The notes below the pieces were generated by a model. It was not told where the DNA came from. It made no database searches and was given only the letters and a program-made list of their open reading frames with translations. Shown piece after piece: positions 21,376 to 57,143 of a stretch of 64,000 nucleotides of DNA (the first letter of the stretch is position 1; the number at the start of each line of letters is the position of its first letter). Source of the stretch: the human T2T-CHM13v2.0 reference genome, Homo sapiens; assembly GCF_009914755.1 (NCBI RefSeq), contig NC_060941.1; one strand, 5' to 3'. The position numbers and the translations under genes were made by a program.

Positions 21376-21403
21376 GAATACAAATCTATAATATCCTAGC
21401 AGT
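21376..21403 (+). other. Exon-like segment xIQIYNILA(V)
   Basis: Acceptor tattctcag|, donor AGT|GTAAGT. Confidence 0.35.
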
Positions 21404-21724
21404 GTAAGTTATAAGTTGAAACAGCCCTAAACCAAGAATCAGGCATCCAGGACTCTTGTCCCAGCTCTACCATTAAGTCACTACATGACATCAACCAAAC
21501 CACTTTTCTGGGCCCCAGTTTCCACATCCAGAAAATGAGAATGTTAAAGTTCATGTTCTCCAGGGTCCCTTCAAGCTGAAAATTCTATGGTTCTATGAAA
21601 TCACTTTTCAAAGATTCAATAAAGGATGTTTATATATAATTATAGTCTCTGGTCATTTCTGACACTAACAGGAAGGTTTTGACAAGGCCTTAAATACTCA
21701 CATGCAGAGAAAGTACACTAAGAA

Positions 21725-22028
21725 TTTTTTCTTTTTTCTTGAGACAGAGTCTCACTCTGTCACCCAGGCTGGAGTGCAGTGGTACAAACACAGTTCACTG
21801 CAGCCTTGACCTCCCAGGCTCATGCAATCCTCCTGCCTAAGCCTCCTGAGTAGCTGAGTCTATACAGTGCACCACCACACCTGGCTAATTTATTTTTATT
21901 TTTATTTTGTAGAGACAGGTTCTCCCTATGTTGTTCAGGCTAGTCTCGAACTCCTAGGCTCAAGCAGTCCTCCCACCTCGGCCTCCCAAAGTGTTGAGAT
22001 TACAGGTGTGAGCCATCACATCCAGCCC
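21725..22028 (-). mobile_element. AluJ-like
   Basis: Reverse dimer. Confidence 0.9.
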
Positions 22029-22575
22029 AGAATTTTTTTATTAAAAAGGTTCCTGCCCTCAAGGAACCTATAATTTAAAAAAGAAAATAAGACAGTTGAA
22101 TTAATAGAAAAACAGTAGAACCACGTTTTACAAAAGGAATGTACAAAACGAAATTGTTAAGTGGGATCAGTGGAACTCAAATTTATGTTCCTAGAAGCCT
22201 TTGGCTTACTCAGAGGTGTTCAGAAGCTGCTTCCAGGATAGGGCAAGAGGGCAAAGGAGTGAGTACTCCACCTCCCCATCCTGGTTTAATCAGAGTAACT
22301 CTGCTTTCATCTGCATCATGCATCTAAGAAATATAACACTTTTACAGAAATAGGGCAGCTATAATAAAAATTTGAAAACCACTAGCCTAGATGATTTCTA
22401 AGGCCTGTTCCAACTTTAAGGTTTCACAATTCTATGATTCTAAGATGTATGTAAAAATAAGTTTTTATATTTTGCATTCAGCTTTGCAGGTACATAGGAA
22501 ATTAACTTCATAAAGATTAATTCTCCTTTAAAACAAATAATTATTTTGTAATACGAATATAAAGCCCTAGATGTA

Positions 22576-23344
22576 CACTGGTCATTACAGAAACACAAAT
22601 CAAAACCAAAATGAGATACCATCCCACACCAGTCAGAATGGCGATTATTCAAAAGTCAGGAAAAACAGATGCTGGTGAGGCTGACGAGGCTGTGGAGAAA
22701 TAGGAATGCTTTTACACTGTTGGTGGGAGTGTAAATTAGTTCAACCATTGTGGAAGACAGTGTGGTGATTCCTCAAGGATCTAGAAACAGAAATACCATT
22801 TGACCCAGCAATCCCATTACTGAGTATATACCCAAAGGATTATAAATCATTCTAATATAAAGACACATGCACACGTATGTTTATTGCAGCACTATTTACA
22901 AAAGCAAAGACTTGGAACCAATCCAAATGCCCATCAATGATAGACTGGATAAAGAAAATGTGGCACATATACACCATGGAATACTATGCAGCCTTAAAAA
23001 AGAATAGTTCATGTCCTTTTCAGGGACATGGATGAAGCTGGAAGCCATCATTCTCAGCAAACTAATACAGGAATAGAAAACCAAACACTGCATGTTCTCA
23101 CTCATAAGTGGGAGTTGAACGATGAGAACACATGGACACAGGGAGGGAAACATCATAAACCAGGGCCTGTTGGGGGGTGGCGGGCAATGGGAGGGAGAGC
23201 ATTAGGACAAATACCTAATACACACGGGGCTTAAAACTTAGGTGCAGCAAACCACCATGGCACATGTATGCCTATGTAACAAACCAGCACGTTCGGCACG
23301 TGTATCCCAAAACTTAAAGTAAAAACAAAAAAACAAAAAACAAA
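22576..23344 (+). mobile_element. 5'-truncated L1PA element (ORF2 3' end + 3'UTR + poly-A)
   Basis: Classic L1 3' sequence (GACCCAGCAATCCCATTACTG..., CATGTTCTCACTCATAAGTGGGAG); TSD AAAGCCCTAGATGTA / AAACCCTAGATGTA. Confidence 0.92.
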
Positions 23345-24351
23345 CCCTAGATGTATAATTTAACACACTCAGATTTTCCTGTCCTGAATTTTCTGAATGT
23401 GAGGCATGATCATAATTACAAAAGAACTGGATGGGAATACAAGGCAGACAAAGGGGTTATAAAAAAGATTTGCAAGATCCCTGGAACACCACGGACTAGC
23501 TGTCAGTTTTGCCAGTGAAGTAAAAGATACTGAACTAGAGCTAGAATCACTCGGCTCTACTACTGAATTAGGTCATTTTTGTTTCATAGAACACATCTCA
23601 GAAAAATCCATGATAATTACTACAGTGTTTTCTATGCATTATTACATTTAATTCTCCCAACTCCATGAAACAGGTGTTATTTTCTTCCCCATTTTACAAA
23701 CAAGAAAACCGGAGCCATGGATGTTAAGTACTTTGCCCAAGGTCAAAGAGCCAGGGCTCAAACCCAGAGAGTCTGACAGCAAAGCCCATGCTCTCAGCCA
23801 CCAAAAGCTGTACCCCATGTTGCTACTGGTGACTCTCAGATGCTGGGTAGACAGCCTGCCCTCCAAAGGTCAAAGGATAGGATTCAAATGGGACTCTGCC
23901 TCCAATTCCTCTATAAATTTATTTGTCTCATTATCCAATCACAAAGAAGAGTTTTCACTTCCCTTATCAAGGCTGGCCCTAGATAAAAATAATGAGGTAG
24001 CTGCAGCTTGTTCATCCTCCCTCCCCGTCACGGCTCCTTCTTCATATGAGGAAGGAAAGAAATACTGACTCCATGAAATTTGTTCTGATGCCTCCCAAGA
24101 ATTGGCCACTCCTTATCTTGCGCACGCACTGAAGATGTATATGTGTACACATATACATCTGTGTGTGTGCATGTAGTACTTTCTTGCCTACTTTACATTT
24201 CATCCCTCTCCCCAACTAGATCATATCTCCTTAGGAATCACAACTAATTTTTACTCATCTCTGTATCCACAACACCTGACAGAGTGCCTAGCATATAATG
24301 GAGGCTTGATAAATGTTTATTTGTTTGAATGAAGGAAAGAAGTACATTCAA

Positions 24352-24631
24352 CTCGGCACGGTGGCTCTCACCTGTAATCCCAGCACTTTGGGAGGCTTAG
24401 GCACATGGATCACCTGAGGTCAAGAGTTCGAGACAAGCCTGGCCAATATGGCAAAACCCCGTCTCTACTAAAAATACAAAAATGTTCTGGGTGTGGTGGA
24501 GTGCGCCTGTAATCCCAGCTACTGCGAAGGCTGAGGCAGGAGAATTGCTTGAACCTGGGAGGCGGAGGTTGCGGTGAGCCAAGATTACACCACTGCACTC
24601 TAGTCTGGGCTCAAATAAATAAATAAATAAA
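24352..24631 (+). mobile_element. Alu
   Basis: Dimer; TSD AAAGAAGTACATTCA. Confidence 0.92.
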
Positions 24632-54939: not shown

Positions 54940-55648
54940 CATTTGATTTTCAATATATCTTAAAGGTCAGTGCATCAGGCAGTATTATCCTCATCTGAAA
55001 AATAAGACACTGGAGCACAGATACATTAAAGGCTTTGCCCAAGACCACACAGCAAGGTAGCAGGAAAGCCTAGCCAGAGGGCTTGATTCATAGTCTATCT
55101 TCCACTCTTTTACCATGCTTACGATCCCAATTACTATTATCTCTCGTATCCCCCAAGTGCAGTTATCCAAGAATTCTCAATTTTTTTTAGAATTTAAAAT
55201 GACATCAGGGCTGTGCCCAGGGTTTGAGAAGGGGAAGCAAAGCCAATGAAAAGAGTAGAATAAGGAGGATTAATCCATATGCCCAAGTGCTCAAACACTT
55301 TTTGAAGCTCCAGTTCTTGAATGAGAGTGGAGTGGGAGGTGGAGAGAGATGACCAGGCAGTCAAGACCAGGTGAAAACCCTGGAGGATAGAACCAAATGC
55401 CAGGTTGAAGTGCTGACAACACACGATAAGAGAAACCAGTCTAGAGCCTCAGGAAGAACCTAAGCTCAGTCCTGTTTTCCCTGCTTCTTTCCTTATAGAA
55501 GGTCAGTGCCCCCTTTTTTGGGCAAAAACATTTCCAGGATGTTTCTTATTTCTATGGAAGCTGGAGCTTTACATTCACAACCCTGTGAGCATTACAGTGG
55601 CCAGTGACAAAGCAGGGTTTGCTCAGATGGACATTTAAAAAAAGCGGT

Positions 55649-55968
55649 GGGCTGGGCCGTGGTGCCTCAGGCCTGTAATCCCAGCACTTTGGGAGGTCAA
55701 GGTGGGTGGATCACTGGAGGTTGGGAGTTCCAGACCAGCCTAGGCAACATGGTGAAACCTCATCTCTACTAAAAATACAAAAAAAAATAGCCAGGCATGG
55801 TGGCGTGTGCCTGTAATCCCAGCTACTCAGGAGGCTGAGTCACGAGGATCGCTTGAGCCCAGGAGGTGGAAGTTGCAGTCAGTGGAGATCGTGCCACTGC
55901 ACTCCAGCCTGGGCAACAGTGAGACTCTGTCTCAAAACCAAACCAAACCAAAACAAAACAAAACAACA
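55649..55968 (+). mobile_element. Alu
   Basis: Dimer. Confidence 0.92.
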
Positions 55969-56428
55969 GTGGTGAACAGAGAGGAGGAGGGATGAGTGGA
56001 AACTCAGCACAAAAAGGATGTGCATGAGGTAGGGCTGGTTGGGAAGACATAGGGGTAGTGAATCTTGGAGCCCTATAATGTTGAGAAAAACAGACATTTA
56101 GAGATCAAATGTAGAGAAAAAAACCCTGGACTGTGGTCAGAACATGTCTATGTGACTCTCCTCTTTGATGCAGACTTTAGACAAATCACTTCCCACAATT
56201 TCTGCATCTGGAAAATAGGAGGGTTGAGCCAGAACTCAAATTCTGTCTCAACTTTGATATTCTAAAATTCTTGATGTTCTCAATCAAAACCACCCGGTGC
56301 ACATCTTTTTCTAATTCTGTCCTCCCTCTGTACATCTGAACCAGCCTGGCCCTGTCCCGGGGGCACTTAAGTTTTTGTTCCATTGGATTTGCGTTCTGGT
56401 GAGAGAAGTCCCTGGTTTCTCCTGTTAG

Positions 56429-56484
56429 ATACGAACTTTGAAAAGATGATGGCAGTCTGGAACTCACAGCTCTTGGAGCCTCCA
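56429..56484 (+). other. Exon-like segment xTNFEKMMAVWNSQLLEPP
   Basis: Acceptor ggtttctcctgttag|, donor CCA|GTAAGT; only one frame open. Confidence 0.45.
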
Positions 56485-57044
56485 GTAAGTGTTTTGCTGG
56501 CCAACAAGGCTCCAAGAGGTGCTCAGGCAGGTATGTCTGACCTGTCACATGACCTTCCCTGTGTTCTGGAAGCTGCCCCTTCCGTGCCCTGTCCCCAGGC
56601 CCCAGGGATGCTGGGCCAGGAGCTGGGATGCTGGGAGTCCTCCACAACGGCACACTCATCCCGCTGGAATTGGAGGCCCATCCCTCAGAGGAGCTGATGC
56701 TCCTTGATGAGGAGCCTAGCTGCACAGAAGATGAAAAGCTGTCTTTGCGGTGGAATGAATTCCCCCAGACCCAAAGCAGCTGCTCCTCGAAGTCTCTGAA
56801 AACAAAAATCCTCATGAATAAATATTAGGGAAGAAATGAGTTTTCTCAAGAACAAAAGCAGATTTGAGGAAGTTCTCTGGGAGAGGTTGGGATCTTTCAT
56901 CTCATGAAATAAGTAATCTATGTATCACTCAGACTCTGCTTGCCAATTCCCCTCCTGTTCCACTGATCCGCAGCCACATCCTGCTCCTCCCTCACATGGA
57001 AACAGGCAGCACCTAGGCCATCATCTGCTCAGACTTTCCTTCAG

Positions 57045-57143
57045 AGGAAAAGAGAAACCACAAACAGCTGCCGTGTGGGCCCTCCTGCCAGATTCCGGAT
57101 TCCAGCTCAGACCACGGATCTCGATGACTTCATTGGTATCTGA
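57045..57143 (+). other. Exon-like segment RKRETTNSCRVGPPARFRIPAQTTDLDDFIGI*
   Basis: Acceptor actttccttcag|; in phase with 56429-56484; locally CpG-retaining. Confidence 0.35.

What the first reader, a model, noticed from the sequence alone, without database searches (positions are those of the whole stretch)
21376..57143. Candidate lost multi-exon gene on the + strand between SKAP1 and HOXB1
Seen: the non-repeat islands between the Alus repeatedly hold short segments bounded by AG and GT: 21376-21403, 22195-22258, 24898-24933, 26901-26958, 29210-29262, 31316-31374, 32501-32526, 33261-33322, 33557-33605, 34261-34297, 37076-37132, 37663-37702, 38807-38842, 38920-39328, 39478-39509, 51222-51261, 51986-52069, 56429-56484 and 57045-57143. 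Several have consensus donors (GTAAGT, GTGAGT, GTAAGA). Many translate into protein-like peptides with beta-turn motifs ([44 protein letters not shown], and HFIISGGSGNTW in a frame at 37324-37445). Established: hydrophobic-x-P-D-G turns, SGxxD and VWN endings are typical of WD40/beta-propeller blades. Inference: this is the decayed remnant of a gene divergent from SKAP1, perhaps still spliced as a lncRNA. I recognise no homologue, some splice sites are weak, the reading frame is ambiguous for several exons, and some AG/GT pairs must be chance.
Basis: partly seen in the sequence, partly recalled or inferred. Interest (0 to 1): 0.8.

Follow-up and report, generated by a model that had tools for sequence, protein, structure and literature searches.

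The report
Chance splice-like segments, not a lost gene
The proposed lost protein gene between SKAP1 and HOXB1 is a hand-picked set of chance AG...GT segments; the real features there are an already annotated long non-coding RNA, Alu copies, and non-coding islands that align with sequences from other genomes.

Summary
The letters are mostly as described. All 19 segments follow AG and 17 of 19 precede GT. This is what chance gives: the 35.8-kb stretch holds 10,110 AG..GT pairs of 26-100 nt on the + strand, 10,017 on the - strand and 9,381-10,465 in random DNA. Joined, the 19 segments carry 12-26 stops per frame. Random picks of open AG..GT segments do as well 14-16% of the time.

No WD40 or any other Pfam family reaches its cut-off in 268 ORFs from both strands. 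Four long ORFs have no paralogue in the genome.

Two picks are real. 29210-29262 is exon 5, and 38920 is the last-exon acceptor, of the annotated lncRNA LOC101927166, which runs divergently from a SKAP1 alternative first exon. Its last exon is half Alu.

The best "protein-like" island is a 168-codon ORF at 33103-33606. It has diverged relatives in protein libraries, but they change reading frame and stop at different places. That fits alignable non-coding DNA, not a coding exon.

Verdict: no lost gene; the real transcript is already known; low interest.

The parts
18305..19403 (+). LOC101927166 exon 1. It overlaps head-to-head the SKAP1 alternative first exon 18409-18533 (- strand). Its donor is GC (AAG|gc).
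   Evidence: hub gene table; splice context read
19965..20086 (+). LOC101927166 exon 2. Its first 41 bases lie in an Alu-sized multi-copy block (19692-20005).
   Evidence: hub table
27585..27726 (+). LOC101927166 exon 3 (cag|...AAG|gt).
   Evidence: hub table
28491..28745 (+). LOC101927166 exon 4 (cag|...CAG|gt).
   Evidence: hub table
29210..29262 (+). LOC101927166 exon 5. Identical to one listed segment.
   Evidence: hub table
38920..39513 (+). LOC101927166 terminal exon 6.
   Evidence: hub table
38938..39228 (+). Alu-sized repeat (up to 41 in-window copies) with an A/G-rich tail. It is flanked by a 16-bp direct repeat at 38923-38938 and 39245-39260 (15 of 16 bases alike), read as a target-site duplication.
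   Evidence: the name 'Alu' is recalled from size, copy number and typical sequence
39488..39493 (+). AATAAA poly(A) signal, 20 nt before the annotated 3' end at 39513
33103..33749 (.). Single-copy island that aligns with sequences from other genomes. It holds the 168-codon ORF 33103-33606 (+), which contains the listed segments 33261-33322 and 33557-33605. Relatives match it in all three + frames.
33653..34030 (.). Old dispersed repeat, with copies of 68-93% identity on many chromosomes
52145..52214 (.). RefSeq-listed enhancer, 76 bp downstream of listed segment 51986-52069
   Evidence: hub table only; 51900-52150 is single-copy in the genome
56538..57737 (.). RefSeq-listed enhancer. It contains listed segment 57045-57143 and abuts 56429-56484. 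It is overlapped by a 212-codon ORF on the - strand (56189-56824) that has no relatives.
   Evidence: hub table
52574..52675 (+). Y RNA retro-copy with an A-tail and flanking direct repeats. Not part of the finding.

Best explanation
No lost protein-coding gene lies here. The 19 segments are a selection from about ten thousand AG..GT-bounded stretches that any 36 kb of human DNA offers on either strand. Their 'protein-like' peptides are translations of non-coding DNA.

Four kinds of feature are real.
1. The annotated six-exon lncRNA LOC101927166 (18305-39513, +). It starts head-to-head with a SKAP1 alternative first exon and is spliced with one GC-AG and four GT-AG introns. It ends at an AATAAA signal in a terminal exon that is half Alu. 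Two listed segments hit its exons.
2. About 25 Alu-sized repeats and some older ones.
3. Single-copy non-coding islands. At least one of them (33.1-33.75 kb) is alignable with sequences from several other genomes regardless of reading frame. I infer it to be a conserved regulatory element in the SKAP1-HOXB1 gene desert.
4. RefSeq-listed enhancers at 52.1 and 56.5-57.7 kb.

Shown here: the statistics, the splice and poly(A) anatomy, the absence of family matches and paralogues, and the loss of frame in relatives. Inferred: that the islands act as enhancers, and that the lncRNA is a by-product or cis-acting partner of the bidirectional SKAP1 promoter.
For: Chance level.
- AG..GT pairs: 10,110 (+), 10,017 (-), 9,381-10,465 in random DNA.
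- Consensus donor hexamers: 34 (+), 25 (-), 31.5 +/- 5.3 random.
- Scored candidate exons are not richer on + than on -.

No frame.
- The joined 1,325 nt has 26, 12 and 17 stops. The longest stop-free chain is 5 of 19 segments.
- In 1,000 random picks of like-sized open AG..GT segments, 12 or fewer stops occur in 16.5% (+ pool) and 16.0% (- pool). A run of 133 aa or more occurs in 13.8% and 14.2%.

No family.
- 0 of 127 + strand ORFs, 0 of 112 - strand ORFs and 0 of 29 short ORFs covering the segments reach a Pfam cut-off. No WD40 row appears at E <= 1 on the + strand sets.
- 125 + strand versus 112 - strand ORFs of 55 aa or more.

No paralogue. The best non-self hits in the genome are E 0.10, 0.2, none and 0.5 for four ORFs. 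The PDB best is E 0.031, or no hit.

Frame not kept. Of 9 diverged relatives of the 168-aa ORF:
- 1 follows the human frame throughout.
- 6 carry the frame-2 continuation after about 33330. In the ungapped tblastn, 4 of these appear as a frame 1 to frame 2 switch. For the two short ones I read the switch from their C-terminal letters, which end at the human frame-2 stop.
- 2 hop through other frame paths, and ends fall at different places.
Identity in the 'wrong' frame 2 (81-86%) is at least that in the ORF frame (60-80%).

lncRNA anatomy. Its longest ATG ORF is 78 aa in 2,265 nt.

Literature.
- LOC101927166 appears only in gene lists at GWAS loci (PMC9040176, passages read).
- The flank toward Skap1 is called a gene desert with distal regulatory elements for HoxB (PMC9286507, passage read; it cites Nolte et al. 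2013, which I did not read).
Against: - The region holds more long ORFs than a homogeneous Markov-1 model predicts: 3 of 168 aa or more against 0.37 expected, with 1 of 100 randoms reaching 3; and 24 of 100 aa or more against 16.3 +/- 3.5. Local shuffles give P of 0.000-0.012 for four ORFs. Two of these are partly Alu antisense, which I recognised from recalled typical Alu translations.
- The motif [ILVFMSYW]P[DE]G occurs 7 times on + against 3 on -, random 3.0 +/- 1.4.
Some other picks could be unannotated alternative exons.
- No RNA-seq data and no genome alignments could be consulted.
- Pfam scanning of short decayed repeats is insensitive.
Confidence: 0.93

Rival explanations
1. One reading: the segments are exons of a decayed WD40/beta-propeller protein-coding gene divergent from SKAP1.
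For: - Short peptides with P-D/E-G turns exist, and that motif class is slightly more frequent on + (7 against 3).
- There is an excess of long ORFs over a simple random model.
- A + strand transcript divergent from SKAP1 exists (hub table).
Against: - Each frame of the joined segments has 12-26 stops, no better than random picks.
- No WD40 or other family matches.
- No paralogue or PDB relative.
- The relatives of the only island that has relatives change frame.
- One 'exon' is 71% Alu and one lies at the poly(A) site.
- Two 'donors' are GC, with 5/9 and 2/9 consensus matches.
- From my own knowledge, not tested here: the paralogous SKAP2-HOXA1 interval also has no protein gene between them.
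Confidence: 0.02
2. At least one of the 17 unannotated segments is a genuine but unannotated alternative exon of LOC101927166 (those at 21-39 kb lie in its introns) or of an enhancer-derived transcript (51-57 kb). These would be non-coding exons.
For:
- 6 of the 19 segments pass the crude splice thresholds of 13/18 and 7/9.
- 15 of the segments lie in introns of an expressed lncRNA (hub table).
Against: - Only one RefSeq transcript is listed (hub table).
- 44 equally good candidates exist on + and 62 on -, so the prior for any single segment is low.
- No expression data were available here.
Confidence: 0.15
3. The 33.1-33.75 kb island is the relic of a small ancestral ORF of about 160 codons (window frame 1, then frame 2). 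It would still be open in some other species and frameshifted in human.
For: Four diverged relatives (P0003, P0009, P0010, P0011) share the frame 1 to frame 2 arrangement with open frames of 124-174 aa.
Against: - Two relatives and human have a stop right after the switch, and others end at three further places. N-termini differ. P0002 and P0008 use other frames.
- Only open frames can enter a protein library, so the sample is biased towards open ORFs.
- No Pfam match in 6 of 6 relatives scanned.
- The amino-acid make-up is that of translated non-coding DNA, with 12 Cys in 168 residues.
Confidence: 0.02

Closest known systems
Divergent (bidirectional-promoter) lncRNAs, here the annotated LOC101927166 / NR_110804.1
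   Same: - It starts head-to-head with a protein-gene first exon (SKAP1 alternative exon 18409-18533).
- It is multi-exonic with GT-AG and GC-AG introns and an AATAAA end.
- It has no long ORF (78 aa at most) and has Alu-derived exon sequence.
   Different: Nothing unusual was found. In the library searched it appears in two papers. In the one I read it is only a name in GWAS locus gene lists (PMC9040176); I did not read the other (PMC10045734).
Halr1/Halr1os1 ('Heater') lncRNAs about 50 kb 3' of mouse Hoxa1 (PMC4510006, passages read)
   Same: These are spliced non-coding transcripts in the flank 3' of a Hox1 gene, in a regulatory landscape.
   Different: They belong to a different Hox cluster, no sequence relation was tested, and they are retinoic-acid responsive with RAREs. 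Here the only DR2/DR5 RARE-type match in the window lies in an Alu-sized repeat. LOC101927166 sits at the SKAP1 end, 60-80 kb from HOXB1.
WD40 / beta-propeller proteins (Pfam PF00400; the accession is recalled)
   Same: Only isolated tetrapeptide turns such as xPDG resemble them.
   Different: There is no profile match, no repeat periodicity, no frame and no homologue.
Conserved non-coding elements / distal enhancers of the HoxB flank (Nolte et al. 2013, known to me only as cited in PMC9286507)
   Same: The 33.1-33.75 kb island is single-copy and alignable with several mutually equidistant sequences from other genomes in every frame. RefSeq lists enhancers at 52.1 and 56.5-57.7 kb.
   Different: Enhancer activity of the 33-kb island is untested. 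The organisms behind the relatives are unknown, so constraint is inferred, not measured.

Membership tests
WD40/beta-propeller protein gene or pseudogene | Profile match to WD40 repeats (or any propeller family) in the translated segments | tested here: not met
   No WD40 row at E <= 1 in 127 + strand ORFs and 29 short ORFs covering the segments. Nothing reaches a gathering cut-off.
WD40/beta-propeller protein gene or pseudogene | Phase-consistent reading frame across the proposed exons | tested here: not met
   The three frames have 26, 12 and 17 stops. At most 5 consecutive segments are stop-free. This is no better than random picks.
WD40/beta-propeller protein gene or pseudogene | Reading frame preserved in related sequences from other genomes | tested here: not met
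   Only 33103-33606 had diverged relatives. 1 of 9 keeps the human frame throughout; the other 8 switch frames or stop. The ORFs around MMAVWN and TFLSPEGHY gave only 100%-identical hits.
WD40/beta-propeller protein gene or pseudogene | Homologue or paralogue elsewhere | tested here: not met
   Own-genome protein searches of 4 ORFs gave best non-self E values of 0.10, 0.2, none and 0.5. PDB gave E 0.031 or no hit.
Spliced polyadenylated lncRNA | Canonical splice sites at all introns and a poly(A) signal at the 3' end | tested here: met
   4 of 5 introns are GT-AG and 1 is GC-AG. AATAAA lies at 39488-39493, 20 nt before the annotated end.
Spliced polyadenylated lncRNA | No long or conserved ORF | tested here: met
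   The longest ATG ORF is 78 aa in the 2,265-nt spliced RNA. Conservation was not tested.
Spliced polyadenylated lncRNA | Transcript evidence | not testable with these tools
   This rests on the hub's RefSeq row (NR_110804.1, BestRefSeq). No RNA-seq data were available here.
Alu insertion | A unit of about 300 bp with many copies, an A-rich tail and a target-site duplication | tested here: met
   38938-39228 has up to 41 in-window copies. It has an A/G-rich tail, and the 16-bp flanking direct repeats are 15/16 alike.
Conserved non-coding element / enhancer (33.1-33.75 kb) | Cross-species similarity independent of reading frame | tested here: met
   Relatives match window frames 1, 2 and 3 at 47-92% amino-acid identity. 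Pairwise identities among the relatives (55-91%) are similar to those with human. The organisms are unknown.
Conserved non-coding element / enhancer (33.1-33.75 kb) | Regulatory activity or chromatin marks | not testable with these tools
   No chromatin or reporter data here. This island is not among the RefSeq functional elements in the hub table.
Y RNA retro-pseudogene (52574-52675) | Full-length Y RNA model match, A-tail, flanking direct repeats and many dispersed copies | tested here: met
   Rfam RF00019 at 82.8 bits against a cut-off of 38, covering model positions 1-96 of 96. The A-run and repeated flank are seen. There are 480 first-look candidates in the genome, the best non-self being 97% identical on contig C7.

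The most novel reading that the evidence does not exclude
That ORF would still be open in several other species and be frameshifted in the human lineage. Less boldly, the island is an unannotated, deeply conserved enhancer of the HOXB/SKAP1 landscape inside intron 5 of the lncRNA.
Probability: 0.02. Interest if true: 0.45.

Novelty: not a real feature. Interest (0 to 1): 0.07.

Why it matters
If it were true, an undetected lost gene beside the HOXB cluster would change the picture of a heavily studied syntenic block. The tests show it is not there, so the value is negative. AG/GT-bounded open segments and xPDG-like peptides in non-repeat islands carry no evidential weight without a strand control and a random control. 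The only transcript here is already annotated. A small useful by-product is that the 33.1-33.75 kb island appears conserved as DNA, which makes it a candidate regulatory element in the SKAP1-HOXB1 desert. That desert also harbours ovarian-cancer and endometriosis GWAS signals (PMC9040176).

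Tried and rejected
- Retinoic-acid response elements as a clue to enhancer function: no DR5 match. The one DR2 match, at 42640-42653, lies inside an Alu-sized block. 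Dropped.
- I recalled that the mouse lncRNA Hobbit1 lay between Hoxb1 and Skap1. The paper places it between Hoxb4 and Hoxb5 (PMC4510006), so it is not an analogue.
- Own-genome DNA search of 56000-58400: only 40 of 1,374 candidates were scored, and all lay at 58246-58400. It therefore says little about 56.2-57.7 kb.
- Pfam on 6 of the 9 diverged relatives: no family reaches its cut-off.
- Rfam over the whole window: only the Y RNA copy.
- Cross-species DNA, PhyloCSF and RNA-seq junctions: no tool here holds vertebrate genomes other than this one, and none holds expression data.
- The joined peptides could not be sent to search tools as one query. I searched the natural stop-to-stop ORFs instead.
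- The supplements of the papers were not opened. Those of PMC9040176 may say more about LOC101927166.

Full report
**1. The observation**

I read all 19 segments. Every one follows AG. Seventeen precede GT. The other two, 38920-39328 and 57045-57143, precede GC, with donor contexts matching only 5/9 and 2/9 consensus positions (the consensus is recalled).

So are four of its peptides as written. '[12 protein letters not shown]' is not contiguous. IVYIP lies at 38923 and [12 protein letters not shown] at 39245, on either side of a repeat.

**2. Is it more than chance? No.**

- The 35,768-base range holds 10,110 AG..GT pairs of 26-100 nt on the + strand, of which 7,578 have at least one open frame. 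The - strand holds 10,017 (7,484). Ten Markov-1 random sequences hold 9,381-10,465.
- Consensus-type donor hexamers GT[AG]AG[TA] number 34 on +, 25 on -, and 31.5 +/- 5.3 in random DNA.
- With crude scores of at least 13/18 pyrimidines and at least 7/9 donor matches, there are 44 candidate exons on +, 62 on - and 30 +/- 5 in random DNA. Six of the 19 listed segments pass.
- Joined, the 19 segments (1,325 nt) have 26, 12 and 17 stops in the three frames. No more than five consecutive segments can be joined without a stop.
In 1,000 random sets of 19 like-sized AG..G[TC] segments, each short one with an open frame, 12 or fewer stops occurred in 16.5% of sets from the + strand pool and 16.0% from the - strand pool. 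A run of 133 aa or more occurred in 13.8% and 14.2%.

**3. Is any of it protein-like by a real test? No.**

- Stop-to-stop ORFs of 55 aa or more overlapping the range number 125 on + and 112 on -.
- Pfam scans covered the 125 + strand ORFs plus the two short ORFs with EINFIPDGT and HFIISGGSGNTW, the 112 - strand ORFs, and 29 short ORFs (20-54 aa) covering the listed segments. No family reached its cut-off and no WD40 row appeared. The best whole-protein E values were 0.0038-0.0049, as expected by chance over 268 queries.
- Own-genome six-frame searches with four long ORFs (33103-33606 +, 56371-56694 +, 51896-52117 +, 56189-56824 -) found only themselves. The next-best E values were 0.10, 0.2, none and 0.5.
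- PDB sequence searches gave E 0.031 (a GFP-like chromoprotein) and nothing.

**4. What speaks the other way**

- The region has more long ORFs than a homogeneous random model: 3 of 168 aa or more against 0.37 expected, and 24 of 100 aa or more against 16.3 +/- 3.5. Four of them are locally unusual, with P of 0.000-0.012.
- Two of those four are partly translations of the antisense strand of Alu-sized repeats. I recognised these from recalled typical Alu translations.
- The motif class [ILVFMSYW]P[DE]G is found 7 times on + against 3 on -, random 3.0 +/- 1.4.

**5. The best candidate, followed up**

The 168-codon ORF 33103-33606 contains two listed segments in one frame. The 'intron' between them is 234 nt, a multiple of three, so no splicing is needed. 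The ORF stretch itself had no other match in the own-genome DNA and protein searches; the adjoining 33653-34030 is an old dispersed repeat.

An exhaustive search of 1.84 billion representative proteins found six hits (E 2.8e-72 to 4e-13). The word-indexed search of 5.8 billion found seven, including the ORF itself. All come from short unnamed contigs.

I mapped the nine diverged relatives back on the window with tblastn.
- P0001 follows the human frame for 153 residues (76%).
- P0003, P0009, P0010 and P0011 run in window frame 1 to about 33330 and then in frame 2, at 81-86% identity. Human has a stop in frame 2.
- P0005 and P0006 carry the same frame-2 continuation and end exactly at that stop. 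Ungapped tblastn reports them as one frame-1 stretch, so this is my reading of their letters.
- P0008 goes 1>2>1>3, again partly from my reading of its letters.
- P0002 goes 2>3>1>2>3, reaching to 33749.
- N-termini and ends differ among them.
- P0004 is identical to human for 42 residues and then departs.

So similarity exists in all three frames and the frame is not conserved. The human 168-codon ORF is a lineage-specific fusion of two frames. This is the signature of alignable non-coding DNA.

Identities among the relatives (55-91%) are about the same as with human. That star-like pattern suggests several deep lineages, and hence constraint on the DNA. The organisms are unknown, so this step is inference.

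None of the six relatives scanned matches a Pfam family. The ORFs around MMAVWN and TFLSPEGHY gave only 100%-identical hits.

**6. What is really there**

The hub table lists the lncRNA LOC101927166 (NR_110804.1) with exons 18305-19403, 19965-20086, 27585-27726, 28491-28745, 29210-29262 and 38920-39513.

- I checked its anatomy. Intron 1 is GC-AG and introns 2-5 are GT-AG. The spliced RNA is 2,265 nt with a longest ATG ORF of 78 aa.
- Exon 1 overlaps head-to-head the SKAP1 alternative first exon 18409-18533.
- Listed segment 29210-29262 is exon 5 exactly, and 38920 is the true acceptor of exon 6.
- Exon 6 contains an Alu-sized repeat at 38938-39228 (up to 41 in-window copies). The repeat has an A/G-rich tail and 16-bp flanking direct repeats that match at 15 of 16 bases.
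- AATAAA lies at 39488-39493 and the annotated end is 39513. The listed 'exon' 39478-39509 and its GTGAGT are therefore the poly(A) region.
- Exon 2 starts inside another Alu-sized block.
- The four segments at 51-57 kb lie beyond the transcript, next to or inside the RefSeq-listed enhancers 52145-52214 and 56538-57737 (hub table).

**7. Literature**

- 'LOC101927166' occurs in two papers of the library. In PMC9040176 (passages read) it is only a name in gene lists at 17q21.32 endometriosis and ovarian-cancer loci. I saw PMC10045734 only in the search listing.
- PMC9286507 (passage read) calls the flank toward Skap1 a gene desert and places distal HoxB regulatory elements there. It cites Nolte et al. 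2013, which I know only from that reference list.
- PMC4510006 (passages read) describes spliced lncRNAs (Halr1/Halr1os1) about 50 kb 3' of Hoxa1. This is a loose analogue in the paralogous flank. The same paper corrected my wrong recollection about Hobbit1.

**8. Verdict**

The finding is a selection artefact laid over an already annotated lncRNA. There is no evidence of a lost coding gene, WD40 or otherwise. The only mildly useful by-product is a probable conserved non-coding island at 33.1-33.75 kb. Conservation, PhyloCSF and RNA-seq junction tests could not be run here and are listed as next steps.

Noticed in passing
window 52574-52675 (+), tail to about 52696: A full-length Y RNA copy (Rfam RF00019, 82.8 bits). 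It is followed by an A-run and flanked by a repeated 'GAATCTAAT..GTAG' stretch. It is 97% identical to a copy on contig C7, and the genome holds 480 first-look candidates. I read it as an L1-type retro-pseudogene; from memory it resembles Y3. It is not in the hub's gene table and lies between the two RefSeq-listed enhancers.
   Followed up: partly
window 33103-33749: A single-copy island with at least 9 diverged relatives among predicted proteins from short unnamed contigs. They match in all three frames and are about as far from each other as from human. It is probably a conserved non-coding element inside intron 5 of LOC101927166, and it is not listed among the RefSeq functional elements.
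   Followed up: partly
window 56189-56824 (-): A 212-codon stop-free frame (209 from the first ATG) overlaps the RefSeq-listed enhancer 56538-57737. The local-shuffle P is 0.012. It is rich in Ser, Leu and Arg, and has no Pfam, PDB or paralogue match. It is most likely a chance ORF.
   Followed up: partly
window 38923-39260 and 19692-20005: Two exons of LOC101927166 are partly Alu-derived. Exon 6 carries a whole Alu-sized insertion with 16-bp target-site duplications. The acceptor of exon 2 lies inside another Alu-sized block.
   Followed up: yes
window 18305-18533: The lncRNA's first exon and the SKAP1 alternative first exon overlap head-to-head by 229 bp. GC is about 0.53 and CpG observed/expected is at most 0.6 in 500-bp windows, so this is not a strong CpG island.
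   Followed up: partly
window 42640-42653 (-): The only DR2-type retinoic-acid response motif in the window (AGGTCAGGAGTTCA) lies inside an Alu-sized repeat block (42498-42716). A single match is within chance: 26 of 100 shuffles have at least one.
   Followed up: no
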